DNA from: Escherichia coli
GTDB lineage: Bacteria > Pseudomonadota > Gammaproteobacteria > Enterobacterales > Enterobacteriaceae
Assembly: GCF_003790525.1 (NCBI RefSeq)
Contig: NZ_CP033635.1
Length of the DNA: 64,000 nucleotides
Direction: 5' to 3' (one strand)
Positions 3,001-6,000 of the stretch are shown piece by piece. The number at the start of each line of letters is the position of its first letter. The first letter of the stretch is position 1. The position numbers were made by a program.

Positions 3001-6000
3001 AAAGCATATCAGACGCCTGGGAAGGCGACACCAAAAGGAAGCTCTATGAGCGAAAAGCTACAGAAAGTGCTGGCGCGTGCCGGCCACGGCTCTCGCCGTG
3101 AAATCGAATCTATTATTGAAGCCGGTCGTGTGAGTGTTGATGGCAAAATTGCTAAACTCGGCGATCGCGTTGAAGTTACCCCTGGATTGAAAATCCGTAT
3201 CGATGGTCACCTGATTTCGGTACGTGAGTCCGCTGAACAAATTTGTCGCGTTCTGGCCTATTACAAACCGGAAGGTGAGTTGTGTACCCGTAACGATCCG
3301 GAAGGACGTCCAACGGTGTTTGACCGTCTGCCAAAACTGCGTGGCGCACGCTGGATTGCCGTGGGGCGCCTGGACGTTAATACCTGTGGTCTGCTGCTGT
3401 TCACCACCGATGGTGAACTGGCAAACCGTTTAATGCACCCAAGCCGTGAAGTTGAACGTGAATATGCCGTGCGTGTATTTGGTCAGGTTGACGACGCGAA
3501 ACTGCGTGATTTGAGTCGTGGCGTGCAGTTGGAAGATGGTCCGGCAGCCTTTAAAACCATCAAGTTCAGCGGCGGCGAAGGGATCAACCAGTGGTACAAC
3601 GTTACTCTGACCGAAGGCCGTAACCGTGAAGTTCGTCGTCTTTGGGAAGCGGTTGGTGTGCAGGTGAGCCGTCTGATCCGCGTGCGTTACGGTGATATCC
3701 CACTGCCGAAAGGTCTGCCACGCGGTGGCTGGACGGAGCTGGACCTCGCCCAGACTAACTATCTGCGTGAGCTGGTGGAACTACCGCCAGAAACCAGCTC
3801 TAAAGTTGCTGTAGAAAAAGACCGTCGTCGTATGAAGGCGAATCAAATTCGTCGTGCGGTGAAACGTCACAGCCAGGTCAGCGGCGGTCGTCGTTCTGGT
3901 GGACGTAATAATAACGGTTAATTTAAGTTAAGTATAAAATAAAGGCCCTGCGGGGCCTTTTCTTCATTTGAAGTATGATAAATAGTCGCAGTATTTTAAT
4001 TTAATTTCATACTTGCTTATGAATATTACCAGGAAATAGCCACATTACTATTTAATTATCTGAGATAAACTCAACGTCAAGAGGTGGGTTATGATTAGAT
4101 ATAGTGGAATATTTCTATCGCTGTTAATGCTTTCAGGTTGTGCAACCGAAGCATTGAAGAATGAACAAGCTGAAACTGTTATTACTGCGGGTAACAAGGC
4201 GGTTGCGGCGAATGCAAGTTTCTTTAAACAATACTATGCTTCTCGTGAAAACTTCCTTGTTAATTTCTATGCAACTAATCCGGATTGTGCACTGCGACCT
4301 GATTATACCATAGATATAGGCGGTGATGGTAATGGCGGAAAATTATGCCAGCGCCCTGGGCCAAATACAAAAAAAGTACAATTAGTCCCTTTCGAGAAAG
4401 AAAAATTACTGGCTTCAATGGAAGTCATTAATAGCATGAGCGCTTATGTAGAACTTCTGACTGAGGACATGGCAACGACAGAAAGTCAGCAAGTGGCATT
4501 ACTTAAACAGGCTCTGGATCACGCAAACAACGCACAAACACTACTTGGTATTTCACATAGCAAAGATTTAGCACAATCTGCAGCAGCGGTTAAAGATTTG
4601 GTAAATTATTTCAATGAGTTATATATAATAAAAGTCAATTCTGGAAAAATAGGCAAAACGGTAGATGAAAACTGGGTAAGACTTATAGGGAACATGACAG
4701 TTTTGCGTAATGATATTTATACAAAAAGCAATAAGATTGAAAATTATACCTTTGCGAATGTGCATGATAATATGTTTTATTATAATACGGCATCTAAAAA
4801 CGCTAAGAATACAGAGTTTAACACTCTGAAAAACAGGAAGGAGTTTCTAAGTTCAGTAATCAATGTGAATGAAACCAGGCTACAGGCATCGGCACCTGCC
4901 ATGCCCGCAATTGAGGCTTTAAATGCCTTTATAGATAAGGGTGATTATCTGAATAATTTATATGTTAATAAAACACGCACGGCAGCTGAACAAAAAAGGT
5001 TAAATGAGATATTGCGCGCACAGGTCATTAGTGGGTTAAAGGCGTCTGAGGGGCTGGCAAAATTACTTATTGCCAGCGGAATAATGTTATAGGAGGCTTT
5101 TTATGAACGATGTGCAAAATCGTAGAATACTGGCATTACTTGATATGCTGTATAATACCCTGGGCAATAAAACCACATGTAATGTTTGTCATAAATATTT
5201 TATCCATATCCTCACAGTTATGAACAACCTGACGATTAACTATGGTACTGAAACTTCGCCAGAGTTAGCAGGGATAAATTATGACGATGCTAATGCGCTA
5301 ATTACTGAACTGATATTATTTATTGAAGATGTTGACGCTGAGAATCATGAAACATATCAGAGACATTTCAATGAGATTATACGCATTCTGAATTTTGCTA
5401 TTGCCGCTTGAATATAATTATGATTAAAGCACCTCAAGAGGCAATCTTTTGAGGTGCTTTCCCTTAATAATCAATCCCTATTTGCGCCTTAACACCGGCA
5501 TCAAACGCATGTTTGATGGGGCGCAGCTCACTCACCGTATCCGCTAGTTCAAGAATATCCCGATGACAGCCTCGACCCGTGATAATCACCGTCTGTTGAT
5601 GTGGACGTTCATTTAACGCCTGCACCACTTCTTCCAGTGGCAAATAATCATACGCCACCATATAAGTCAGTTCATCGAGCAAAACCATATCCAGTGAAGG
5701 ATCTGCCAGCATTCGTTTGGCATGTTGCCAGACTTCACGGCAGGCGGCGGTATCAGATTCGCGATTTTGCGTATCCCAGGTAAAGCCCGTTGCCATCACC
5801 TGAAATTCAACGCCGTGTGGTTCCAGCAGATTTCGTTCGCCATTAGGCCAGGTGCCTTTAATAAACTGCACGACGCCCACTTTTTTTCCGTGACCAACTG
5901 CGCGTGTTGCCGTACCAAATGCTGCGGTGGTTTTGCCTTTTCCATTGCCGGTAAAGACGATGATAATACCGCGTTCATCCTGGGCCTGGGCCACACGGGC

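What the first reader, a model, noticed from the sequence alone, without database searches (positions are those of the whole stretch)
5103..5411. Small acidic partner protein, candidate immunity or regulatory component
The 102-aa protein has no signal peptide and starts 10 nt after the lipoprotein gene behind a near-consensus RBS, implying co-translation stoichiometry. Its C-terminal half is strongly acidic (EDVDAENHETYQ). It carries a single CNVCH motif, which without a second Cys pair is more likely a partial metal site than a heme site.
Basis: inference. Interest (0 to 1): 0.5.

Follow-up and report, generated by a model that had tools for sequence, protein, structure and literature searches.

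The report
Orphan lipoprotein-partner gene pair in E. coli
The 102-codon ORF is a real gene for a small acidic four-helix protein that stays inside the cell and always travels with an outer-membrane lipoprotein gene; the mobile pair matches no known family, and its function is still inferred, not shown.

Summary
The window is E. coli SMS-3-5. ORF 5103-5411 starts 10 nt after the lipoprotein gene (4091-5092), behind an AGGAGG that overlaps the TAG stop. Its product is acidic (pI 4.8), has no signal peptide and carries one CNVCH.

The gene is real. It is under purifying selection, its frame is kept down to 36% identity, and the AlphaFold model is a confident four-helix bundle (pLDDT 87.7).

The two genes form a 1.5 kb low-GC cassette between rluB and cobO. 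The small gene is in 1234 of 5426 complete E. coli genomes. The cassette sits at the same site in Citrobacter. The only distant relative, again as a lipoprotein-plus-small-gene pair, is low-GC cargo on a PFGI-1-type conjugative element.

Within E. coli the cassette exists as ancient mosaic alleles. The promoter and first ~70 lipoprotein codons are shared. The rest, including the small gene, has saturated synonymous sites.

C26, C29 and H88 are invariant; H30 is not. This is not a haem c site; a Cys2-His metal or thiol site is plausible.

Pfam, NCBIfam, PADLOC, PHROGs, PDB, AFDB and viral searches gave nothing significant. Best guess (about 0.3) is an immunity-like intracellular partner. One genome tolerates an IS1 knockout, and one recombinant pairs a different lipoprotein body with the same small protein; both weaken that guess.

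The parts
3941..3960 (.). GC-rich hairpin that ends rluB; left edge of the cassette
   Evidence: Terminator-like site found on both strands. Everything from the rluB stop codon onward differs from the 38-bp spacer of empty-site strains.
3961..4090 (+). AT-rich upstream region and presumed promoter of the two-gene operon
   Evidence: GC 37-38%. It is 94-100% identical across all E. coli alleles. The scan found no confident sigma-70 match on the + strand here. There is a 14-nt imperfect direct repeat at 3980 and 4034.
4091..5092 (+). Gene for a 333-aa lipoprotein (WP_000622025.1): signal peptide, lipobox LSGC, Ala at +2, mostly helical
   Evidence: ORF and translation; annotation. No hit in Pfam, NCBIfam, PADLOC or PHROGs. 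It has exactly three Cys in all 11 homologues: the lipidated Cys plus C66 and C86. The AlphaFold2 model is unusable, pLDDT 42.
4286..4400 (+). Cys66-Cys86 loop and following residues: the hypervariable spot of the lipoprotein
   Evidence: Only 44-70% nt identity here, even between alleles that are 84-98% identical elsewhere. The poor model predicts a beta-hairpin at residues 73-77 and 93-97. Both dN and dS are raised here and dN/dS stays below 1.
4306..5418 (+). Divergent allelic block: lipoprotein from about codon 72 to its end, plus the whole small gene
   Evidence: Identity to allele 2 (L002, L003) is 38-87% inside this block and 87-100% outside it. Flanking dS is 0.07 for rluB and 0.24 for cobO, against pS 0.54 for the lipoprotein and 0.82 for the small gene.
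4300..4950 (+). Separately exchangeable middle module of the lipoprotein; three types in E. coli
   Evidence: L022 carries a third type of middle region, 53-56% aa identity to the other two. Its last 40 lipoprotein residues are 100% window-type and its small protein is of allele 1.
5090..5102 (+). Coupling junction: TAG stop overlapping AGGAGG, then a 6-nt spacer
   Evidence: Read directly from the sequence. Conserved in all alleles, in Citrobacter and, in looser form, in the ICE homologue.
5103..5411 (+). The finding: gene for a 102-aa acidic cytoplasmic four-helix-bundle protein (WP_001000712.1)
   Evidence: Model has pLDDT 87.7 with helices 3-21, 27-42, 53-78 and 82-100. Purifying selection. 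Family restricted to Escherichia and Citrobacter plus one ICE homologue.
5178..5192 (+). Codons 26-30, C-N-V-C-H, at the N-cap of helix 2
   Evidence: C26 and C29 are invariant in all 11 intact homologues. H30 is Lys in P0043. N22 is invariant, giving N-x3-C-x2-C.
5259..5336 (+). Codons 53-78 (helix 3, ...INYDDANALITELILFIEDVD): the most conserved part of the protein
   Evidence: It holds 11 of the 21 residues that are invariant across all homologues, ICE copy included.
5364..5366 (+). Codon His88 in helix 4: invariant, candidate third ligand alongside C26 and C29
   Evidence: Invariant in alignment A5. That it lies close to the two Cys is inferred from the helix pattern, not measured.
5426..5460 (.). 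15-bp perfect hairpin between the small gene and the convergent cobO; right edge of the cassette
   Evidence: Folding energy -22.2 kcal/mol, z-score -4.6.

Best explanation
ORF 5103-5411 encodes the intracellular partner of the lipoprotein encoded just upstream. Together they form a self-contained, horizontally mobile two-gene module.

**Shown**
- The two genes have their own AT-rich upstream region and a terminator. Their junction suits translational coupling.
- The lipoprotein has a Sec/SPII signal and lipobox.
- The small protein has no export signal and folds as an acidic four-helix bundle.
- The pair is kept as a unit down to 26-36% identity, in two unrelated genetic contexts.
- E. coli holds ancient mosaic alleles of the module.

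**Inferred**
- The lipoprotein goes to the outer membrane (Ala at +2, Lol sorting rule). It has a conserved N-terminal helix, a disulfide-stapled hypervariable hairpin and a variable helical body that faces some co-evolving outside agent.
- The small protein stays in the cytoplasm and presents its near-invariant helix 3 as a binding surface.
- It holds a Cys26/Cys29/His88 zinc or thiol site at one end of the bundle.
- Its job is to bind and neutralise or hold the lipoprotein, or a domain of it, on the cytoplasmic side. That makes it an immunity- or antidote-like keeper of an envelope effector, not an enzyme, a cytochrome or a DNA-binding regulator.

**Rough probabilities**

| Claim | Probability |
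|---|---|
| Real gene | 0.97 |
| Functional partner of the lipoprotein | 0.85 |
| Cytoplasmic four-helix bundle | 0.85 |
| Metal or thiol site | 0.5 |
| Immunity-like neutralising role | about 0.3 |
For: - **Synteny and junction:** conserved in nine Escherichia and Citrobacter copies and in the ICE homologue.
- **Own operon:** flanked by the rluB terminator, a conserved AT-rich leader and a 15-bp hairpin.
- **Mobile cargo:** GC is 35-38% against about 51% for the window. On the ICE the GC of the two genes is 28-32% against 55-57% for the backbone. There the pair sits in a slot that is empty in a related Pantoea element.
- **Block structure like effector-immunity cassettes:** a shared 5' end, then a sharp break near lipoprotein codon 72, with the divergent block ending just after the small gene.
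- **Protein properties:** small, acidic, helical, no signal peptide.
- **Conserved residues:** C26, C29, H88 and helix 3.
- **Selection:** purifying selection on the small gene.
Against: - No toxin domain and no conserved catalytic motif in the lipoprotein.
- The two mature proteins should be in different compartments.
- L022 pairs a middle domain only 53% identical to the window type with a small protein 96% identical to other allele-1 copies (87% to the window copy). The small protein therefore tracks the adjacent 3' DNA, not the variable domain.
- A complete genome (NZ_OZ040331.1) has IS1 in codon ~24 of the small gene next to an intact, common-allele lipoprotein gene. A 1-nt deletion variant occurs in assemblies from two other sequencing runs, one of them showing an intact lipoprotein gene.
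- Disruptions of the two genes occur roughly in proportion to gene length, so there is no 'orphan immunity' signal.
- No binding, expression or phenotype data exist.
Confidence: 0.3

Rival explanations
1. The pair is a true polymorphic toxin-immunity system. The lipoprotein is a toxin passed between neighbouring cells through the outer membrane, by contact or vesicles. The small protein is the cognate cytoplasmic immunity protein, as with SitA/SitI in myxobacteria. This is the strict form of the best explanation.
For: - The lipoprotein has a lipobox.
- The alleles share a conserved N-terminus and differ in the rest.
- The small downstream gene lies inside the same divergent block.
- The pair is mobile, low-GC cargo, patchily present in 1234 of 5426 genomes.
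- SitAI loci are operons of a lipoprotein toxin and a non-transferred immunity protein, often on mobile DNA (PMC8546572).
Against: - The variable parts are homologous (53-66% identity), not unrelated toxin domains.
- No toxin domain was detected.
- The conserved N-terminal part is about 55 residues, against an escort domain of about 375 aa in SitA.
- No case was found of this N-terminus fused to another C-terminus.
- The L022 recombinant breaks cognate pairing.
- An IS1 knockout of the small gene is viable.
- Outer-membrane exchange by TraAB is not known in Enterobacteriaceae (own knowledge).
Confidence: 0.15
2. The lipoprotein is a protective or exclusion factor at the cell surface, against phage, bacteriocin, conjugative entry or host immunity. 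The small protein is a cytoplasmic helper: a dedicated holdase for the precursor, or a feedback regulator of the operon.
For: - A hypervariable, disulfide-flanked loop and three exchangeable middle-domain types are what one expects of a surface seen by an outside agent.
- The ICE copy sits among transfer genes next to an Mrr-type endonuclease gene.
- Loss of the small gene is tolerated.
- The small protein co-varies with the conserved N- and C-terminal parts of the lipoprotein (r 0.93 and 0.97), not with the variable body.
- Small acidic helical chaperones encoded next to their substrates are a known theme, for example FliS and FliT (own knowledge).
Against: - No similarity to TraT, Llp, Cor or other exclusion lipoproteins (Pfam, NCBIfam and PHROGs gave nothing).
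- No match to PADLOC defence models.
- Dedicated cytoplasmic chaperones for Sec-exported lipoproteins are not an established class (own knowledge).
- No DNA-binding motif and no detectable operator. There is only a weak 14-nt direct repeat.
- dN/dS never exceeds 1 in the loop.
Confidence: 0.25
3. The small protein is a zinc-binding anti-sigma-like or anti-activator regulator that acts on host transcription. It is only co-expressed with the lipoprotein.
For: - A four-helix bundle of about 100 aa with a CxxC at a helix start resembles the layout of zinc anti-sigma domains (own knowledge).
- C26, C29 and H88 are invariant.
Against: - The motif is N-x3-C-x2-C, not H-x3-C-x2-C.
- No Pfam hit to zf-HC2 or any other family.
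- No sigma factor gene next to any copy. The neighbours are rluB and cobO, or ICE transfer genes.
Confidence: 0.08
4. The small protein is itself a membrane-attacking death effector, a four-helix bundle like MLKL or the plant CC and HeLo domains. It is triggered when the envelope lipoprotein senses attack, giving an abortive-infection module.
For: - The N-terminus MNDVQNRR is strongly conserved among the enteric copies.
Against: - Foldseek found nothing significant in AFDB50 or BFVD.
- The protein is acidic (pI 4.8), whereas membrane binding by MLKL uses basic residues (own knowledge).
- No membrane-spanning link to the lipoprotein.
- No PADLOC hit.
Confidence: 0.04
5. The two genes have unrelated functions. 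The small gene is simply linked, and its divergence between alleles is hitch-hiking inside the recombination block.
For: - Its allele type follows the adjacent 3' DNA, not the variable lipoprotein domain.
- Either gene can be lost alone.
Against: - Adjacency, order, the short gap and the Shine-Dalgarno sequence at or next to the stop codon survive to 26-36% identity and across a change of genomic context.
- No copy of either gene was found without the other, or a remnant of it, at the locus.
Confidence: 0.1
6. The CNVCH motif makes the protein a c-type cytochrome.
For: CXXCH is the canonical haem c attachment motif (established knowledge). It is present at residues 26-30.
Against: - No signal peptide, so no access to periplasmic haem attachment.
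- The His is Lys in the distant homologue.
- No cytochrome family hit.
Confidence: 0.01

Closest known systems
SitA/SitI polymorphic lipoprotein toxin-immunity loci of Myxococcus (PMC8546572, PMC5562445)
   Same: - A lipoprotein gene followed in the same operon by a small, non-exported protein.
- A conserved N-terminal part, with the variable remainder and the downstream gene inherited together.
- Frequent location on mobile DNA.
   Different: - SitA has an escort domain of about 375 aa and unrelated, recognisable nuclease domains. Here the conserved part is about 55 aa and the variable parts are homologous, with no toxin domain.
- One copy per genome, against 25-80 loci per genome in myxobacteria.
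- No TraAB exchange system is known in enterics.
- No sequence similarity.
E-type colicin DNase domains with Im7/Im9-type immunity proteins (own knowledge)
   Same: - A small (about 85-100 aa), acidic, four-helix cytoplasmic protein encoded right after its partner.
- Allelic pairs of moderately diverged homologues rather than unrelated domains.
   Different: - No match to the colicin immunity family or to any colicin domain.
- The upstream protein is a lipoprotein with a Sec signal.
- Chromosomal, with no lysis gene.
- Loss of the small gene is tolerated.
TraT/TraS-type surface and entry exclusion genes of conjugative plasmids (own knowledge)
   Same: An outer-membrane lipoprotein with allelic types, carried on a conjugative element among transfer genes, with a second small gene beside it.
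   Different: - No sequence match.
- TraS is an inner-membrane protein, whereas this partner is soluble.
- Most copies are chromosomal, far from any transfer genes.
Zinc-binding anti-sigma (ZAS) domains such as RsrA and ChrR (own knowledge)
   Same: A helical bundle of about 100 aa with a CxxC at a helix start and a conserved His elsewhere.
   Different: - The H-x3-C-x2-C motif is not met (N-x3-C-x2-C).
- No partner sigma gene.
MLKL, plant CC and HeLo four-helix-bundle death domains
   Different: - Sequence identity is only 7-12%, and designed bundles score the same.
- The protein is acidic rather than basic.
- No attached sensor domain.

Membership tests
c-type cytochrome (haem c via CXXCH) | Export signal placing the motif in the periplasm | tested here: not met
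   The highest 19-residue hydropathy mean is 0.93. Residues 3-21 form helix 1 of the bundle. The RR at positions 7-8 is not conserved in P0043.
c-type cytochrome (haem c via CXXCH) | Invariant His of CXXCH as the axial ligand | tested here: not met
   The motif is CDNCK in the ICE homologue.
c-type cytochrome (haem c via CXXCH) | Covalently bound haem | not testable with these tools
   Needs haem staining or mass spectrometry of the purified protein.
ZAS anti-sigma factor | H-x3-C-x2-C zinc motif and a profile match (zf-HC2) | tested here: not met
   The motif is N-x3-C-x2-C in all 11 homologues. No Pfam hit at E <= 0.1 for any member.
ZAS anti-sigma factor | Adjacent cognate ECF sigma factor gene | tested here: not met
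   The neighbours are rluB and cobO, or ICE transfer genes.
Colicin/pyocin-type immunity protein | Profile match to the immunity family | tested here: not met
Colicin/pyocin-type immunity protein | Encoded next to a recognisable bacteriocin toxin domain | tested here: not met
   The upstream protein has no Pfam domain.
Polymorphic toxin-immunity cassette (SitAI-like) | Conserved N-terminal delivery part, with the variable C-terminal part and the downstream small gene in one divergent block | tested here: met
   The divergent block has sharp boundaries at about 4306 and 5418.
Polymorphic toxin-immunity cassette (SitAI-like) | The same N-terminus fused to unrelated, recognisable toxin domains | tested here: not met
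   All relatives are homologous along their whole length. No alternative C-termini were found, and no toxin domain.
Polymorphic toxin-immunity cassette (SitAI-like) | Strict cognate pairing of the variable domain with the immunity allele | tested here: not met
   L022 has a type-3 middle domain with an allele-1 small protein.
Polymorphic toxin-immunity cassette (SitAI-like) | Toxicity of the large protein that the small one neutralises | not testable with these tools
   Needs expression and competition experiments. The viable IS1 knockout is weak evidence against.
Known anti-phage defence systems (PADLOC-DB v2) | Profile match of either protein | tested here: not met
   No families matched either protein, even at E <= 1.
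TraT-type exclusion lipoprotein | Profile match to TraT or other exclusion lipoproteins | tested here: not met
   No Pfam, NCBIfam or PHROGs match beyond the signal-peptide region.
HEPN RNase (weak Pfam lead for the lipoprotein) | Significant profile match and an R-x4-6-H motif | tested here: not met
   HEPN_DZIP3 matched only 2 of 11 members, with i-E 8.5e-4 and 0.021. The motif is absent in 10 of 11 and not conserved.
MLKL/CC/HeLo four-helix-bundle effectors | Fold similarity above that of generic bundles | tested here: inconclusive

The most novel reading that the evidence does not exclude
Enterobacteria carry a previously unrecognised lipoprotein-based antagonism or exclusion system that needs no dedicated secretion machine.

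- **Effector:** an outer-membrane lipoprotein effector with exchangeable variable modules. It would be passed on by contact or by outer-membrane vesicles.
- **Neutraliser:** it would be neutralised in kin cells by a new family of cytoplasmic Cys2-His four-helix-bundle immunity proteins.
- **Population pattern:** the ancient allelic types at rluB-cobO would then act as compatibility groups in E. coli populations.
Probability: 0.15. Interest if true: 0.8.

Novelty: new variant of a known kind. Interest (0 to 1): 0.42.

Why it matters
About 23% of complete E. coli genomes (1234 of 5426), including many human isolates, carry this cassette, yet neither protein has a name, a domain or a paper.

The population pattern is unusual for a hypothetical gene pair:
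- Three or more ancient alleles are kept at one locus.
- Their synonymous sites are saturated, while the flanking genes are nearly identical.
- Recombination breakpoints fall inside the lipoprotein gene.

This points to long-term balancing or diversifying selection at the cell envelope. Such selection usually marks interaction with phages, bacteriocins, competitors or the host.

If the small protein proves to be an immunity-like keeper, this would be a new effector-immunity family in a model organism. If it does not, it is still a compact, well-folded orphan protein with a candidate metal or thiol site, and easy to study.

Tried and rejected
**Family searches**
- Pfam, NCBIfam, PADLOC and PHROGs on both proteins, on the ICE pair and on whole alignments. 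Only noise came back: zf-FCS at E 0.14, TmeB at E 0.05, and Lpp on the signal peptide.
- The HEPN_DZIP3 lead for the lipoprotein was followed with the last two Pfam jobs. It was dropped because the R-x4-6-H motif is absent.

**Remote homologue searches**
- A profile search of 1.84 billion representative proteins found one distant relative.
- A word-index search with the ICE lipoprotein found nothing.
- Species-representative genomes gave only E. whittamii and E. albertii.
- Metagenome contigs gave only close Escherichia copies.
- Viral contigs and phage genomes gave nothing.
- Plasmid hits were mislabelled or frameshift-ridden chromosomal fragments.

**Structure**
- The lipoprotein model failed (pLDDT 42), so no fold search could be run on it.
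- PDB profile searches gave only chance hits.

**Other checks**
- A Tat signal was considered because of RR at positions 7-8. It was rejected because the RR is not conserved and helix 1 is part of the fold.
- Positive selection in the hypervariable loop was tested and not found: dN/dS is 0.18-0.42 and dS is raised as well.
- Rfam and repeat scans of the cassette gave nothing.
- Five literature searches found no paper on these genes, using gene names, accession numbers and peptide strings. They did retrieve the SitA comparison papers.
- The host organism of the ICE copy (GCA_025881875.1) could not be named. Its TraD is 75-78% identical to those of Serratia, Pantoea and Citrobacter elements.
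Full report
**1. Where we are**

The window is the chromosome of E. coli SMS-3-5 (100% identity to NC_010498.1). The local gene order is yciO, yciQ, rluB, two 'hypothetical' genes, cobO (btuR), yciK, sohB, yciN, topA, cysB.

**2. The observation**

The ORF at 5103..5411 (+) encodes 102 aa and is annotated WP_001000712.1, hypothetical protein. The upstream ORF, 4091..5092, encodes a 333-aa protein that starts MIRYSGIFLSLLMLSGC. That is a Sec/SPII signal with lipobox LSGC and Ala at +2. By the Lol sorting rule (established knowledge) this predicts the outer membrane.

The junction reads TAGGAGGcttttt ATG. The gap is 10 nt, AGGAGG overlaps the stop codon, and a 6-nt spacer follows.

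The small protein has:
- 13 acidic against 6 basic residues, pI 4.78, and pI 4.14 in its C-terminal half;
- two Cys, in CNVCH at residues 26-30;
- no hydrophobic stretch.

**3. It is a real gene**

- Among close alleles dN/dS is 0.06-0.53.
- Between the two major E. coli alleles the synonymous sites are saturated (pS 0.82), yet the proteins are still 72% identical (dN 0.18).
- The frame is intact in 23 of 24 copies recovered from metagenomes.
- AlphaFold2, given only 10 sequences, returns a confident up-down four-helix bundle: pLDDT 87.7, pTM 0.83, helices 3-21, 27-42, 53-78 and 82-100.

**4. The cassette**

The two genes lie in a 1.5 kb low-GC stretch, 32-41% in 300-nt windows against 50-56% in the flanks. 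On the left is the rluB terminator. On the right is a perfect 15-bp hairpin, -22.2 kcal/mol, z-score -4.6.

Strains with K-12-like gene order, such as strain S3, have only a 38-bp spacer between rluB and cobO. No direct repeats or mobility genes flank the cassette.

The small gene is present in 1234 of 5426 complete E. coli genomes: 458 at 90% nt identity or more, and 776 at 60-80%.

**5. Family and distribution**

| Search | Result |
|---|---|
| Word-index search of 5.8 billion protein clusters, small protein | 16 relatives; every named source is Escherichia (including E. albertii) or Citrobacter |
| Same search, lipoprotein | 26 relatives; same two genera among the named sources |
| Profile search of 1.84 billion representative proteins | One further relative, P0043 (95 aa, 36% identity) |
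| Species-representative genomes | Only E. whittamii and E. albertii |
| Phage genomes and viral contigs | None |
| Plasmids | Only mislabelled chromosomal records |
| Metagenome contigs | Only close Escherichia copies |

In Citrobacter the pair sits at the same rluB-cobO site.

**6. The distant homologue is also a pair, on a conjugative element**

P0043 lies 14 nt downstream of a 347-aa lipoprotein (lipobox LSSC). That lipoprotein is 26% identical to the window lipoprotein over 306 residues, E 1e-29.

Both genes sit between the TIGR03747 membrane-protein gene and the RAQPRD gene of a PFGI-1-class (MPF_G) integrative conjugative element, next to an Mrr-type endonuclease gene. The two genes have 28-32% GC in a backbone of 55-57%. 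A related Pantoea element has nothing in that slot.

The pair is therefore the conserved unit, and it travels as accessory cargo.

**7. Allelic mosaic**

Against allele 2 (L002, L003), identity is 87-100% from rluB up to about window position 4305, which is lipoprotein codon ~72. It then drops to 38-87% until about 5418, just past the small gene's stop codon. It returns to about 85-98% in cobO.

Flanking dS is 0.07 (rluB) and 0.24 (cobO). Inside the block synonymous sites are at or near saturation.

A third type, L022 (P0030), has a different middle region at window 4300-4950, 53-56% aa identity to both others. Its last 40 lipoprotein residues are 100% window-type, and its small protein is 96% identical to other allele-1 copies.

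Over 36 pairwise comparisons, small-protein identity correlates with:

| Lipoprotein segment | r |
|---|---|
| C-terminal 40 residues | 0.97 |
| N-terminal 72 residues | 0.93 |
| Middle domain | 0.85 |

The stretch from Cys66 through Cys86 to about residue 100 is a hot spot, 44-70% nt identity even between otherwise close alleles. Both dN and dS are raised there and dN/dS stays below 1. This looks like imported old variation rather than recent positive selection.

All lipoproteins have exactly three Cys: the lipidated one and the two that flank this loop.

**8. What the small protein looks like**

Across all 11 intact homologues, 21 residues are invariant: M1, N2, Q5, L16, N22, C26, C29, S52, E54, I58, A63, N64, I67, T68, E69, L70, L72, F73, I74, H88 and I92.
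- Eleven of them lie in helix 3.
- H30 is Lys in P0043.
- The conserved motif is therefore N-x3-C-x2-C plus H88, not CXXCH.

From the heptad pattern, C29 and H88 face the core near the same end of the bundle, and C26 caps helix 2. That is my inference; the model coordinates could not be measured. A Cys2-His metal or thiol site is plausible but untested.

A haem c site is excluded in practice: the protein has no export signal and the His is not conserved.

**9. No known family**

- Pfam, NCBIfam, PADLOC and PHROGs gave nothing for either protein or for the ICE pair.
- PDB profile searches gave only chance hits.
- Foldseek against AFDB50 and BFVD gave nothing with E below 0.5.
- The lipoprotein model was too poor (pLDDT 42) for any fold search.
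- A weak HEPN_DZIP3 hit in the Citrobacter lipoproteins lacks the catalytic motif.
- No paper mentions these genes.

**10. Disruptions**

- Lipoprotein genes are broken by IS elements or frameshifts in several isolates while the small gene stays intact. Examples are P0021-24, the E. albertii type strain, L035, L046, L047, strain E200086 and ICE copy L007.
- Conversely, complete genome NZ_OZ040331.1 has IS1 in codon ~24 of the small gene beside an intact common-allele lipoprotein gene.
- A 1-nt G deletion at codon 21 occurs in both allele types.
- The ratio of disruptions is roughly that of the gene lengths. Neither gene looks protected relative to the other.

**11. Interpretation**

The firm conclusions are three:
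- The gene is real.
- Its product is a soluble, acidic four-helix bundle that stays in the cytoplasm.
- It is the conserved, probably translationally coupled partner of an outer-membrane-type lipoprotein, in a mobile two-gene module that E. coli keeps as ancient mosaic alleles.

The block structure resembles effector-immunity cassettes such as SitA/SitI and colicin DNase/Im pairs (own knowledge). The shared features are a common 5' end, and a variable remainder and small downstream gene inherited together. I therefore rank an immunity-like, neutralising or holding role first, at about 0.3.

Five points weaken it:
- there is no toxin domain;
- the alleles are homologous rather than carrying swapped domains;
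- the two proteins should be in different compartments;
- the L022 recombinant breaks cognate pairing;
- the IS1 knockout is viable.

A protective or exclusion lipoprotein with a cytoplasmic helper or regulator is nearly as likely, at about 0.25. It fits the hypervariable loop and the tolerated loss better. Other readings rank lower:

| Reading | Probability |
|---|---|
| Anti-sigma-like regulator | 0.08 |
| Unrelated linked gene | 0.1 |
| MLKL-like executioner | 0.04 |
| Cytochrome c | 0.01 |

**12. Verdict**

'Immunity or regulatory' stays a hypothesis with mixed evidence. The argument about haem was wrong in logic but right in outcome.

The pair is an uncharacterised orphan family with an unusual population structure. 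It is moderately interesting and cheap to test.

Noticed in passing
window ~29158-36650 (NC_010498.1 1853956-1861448): Between sapF and fabI lie a TetR regulator gene, a three-gene RND efflux set (adaptor, permease, outer-membrane subunit) and an MFS transporter gene. From memory this block is not part of the K-12 gene order, so it may be another accessory insertion.
   Followed up: no
window 4091-5092 and relatives (P0021-P0029, L010, L035, L046, L047, L052, L007): The lipoprotein gene is repeatedly broken in nature. One variant has its N-terminus replaced at about codon 58 by a foreign-looking peptide ('MSKLAASPVK'), read here as an insertion junction. Strain E200086 has IS1 near the 3' end. 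The E. albertii type strain and several gut metagenome contigs carry frameshifts. Many 'partial' database entries suggest that contigs often break inside this gene.
   Followed up: partly
window ~5163-5175 (codons 21-25 of the small gene); L019, L020, L021, L051: Independent lesions cluster at one spot. The same 1-nt G deletion occurs in both allele types. IS1 is inserted at codon ~24 in NZ_OZ040331.1. Truncated products P0044 and P0045 also break here. This may be a mutational hot spot or partly a sequencing artefact. NZ_OZ040331.1 also has the Shine-Dalgarno sequence changed to GGGGG.
   Followed up: partly
L004 (E. coli S3, NZ_CP010228.1): This empty-site strain also lacks yciQ (the DUF2207 gene) between yciO and rluB. 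The neighbourhood therefore has more than one presence/absence polymorphism.
   Followed up: no
L011 (CP054249.1) and CP054253.1: Two 'plasmids' of E. coli STO_Bone4 in PLSDB hold the chromosomal rluB-cobO region. The one examined in detail (CP054249.1) is full of frameshifts. Both are probably misassembled or mislabelled chromosomal fragments.
   Followed up: partly
L005 6459-7220 (- strand): An Mrr_cat restriction-endonuclease-like gene (GC 36%) lies next to the ICE copy of the pair, in the same low-GC cargo slot. It has no counterpart at the E. coli locus.
   Followed up: no
AFDB50 hit A0AAE6JQU6 (Haemophilus parahaemolyticus, 92 aa): An uncharacterised protein of similar size gave one of the better structural overlaps (TM-score 0.60 on the target). 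From memory, Haemophilus carries the same class of conjugative element, so it might be a very remote relative. Its sequence could not be fetched.
   Followed up: no
window 3980-3993 and 4034-4047: An imperfect 14-nt direct repeat (AAATAGTCGCAGTA and AAATAGCCACATTA), spaced 54 nt apart, lies in the fully conserved upstream region of the operon. It could be a regulator binding site or chance.
   Followed up: no
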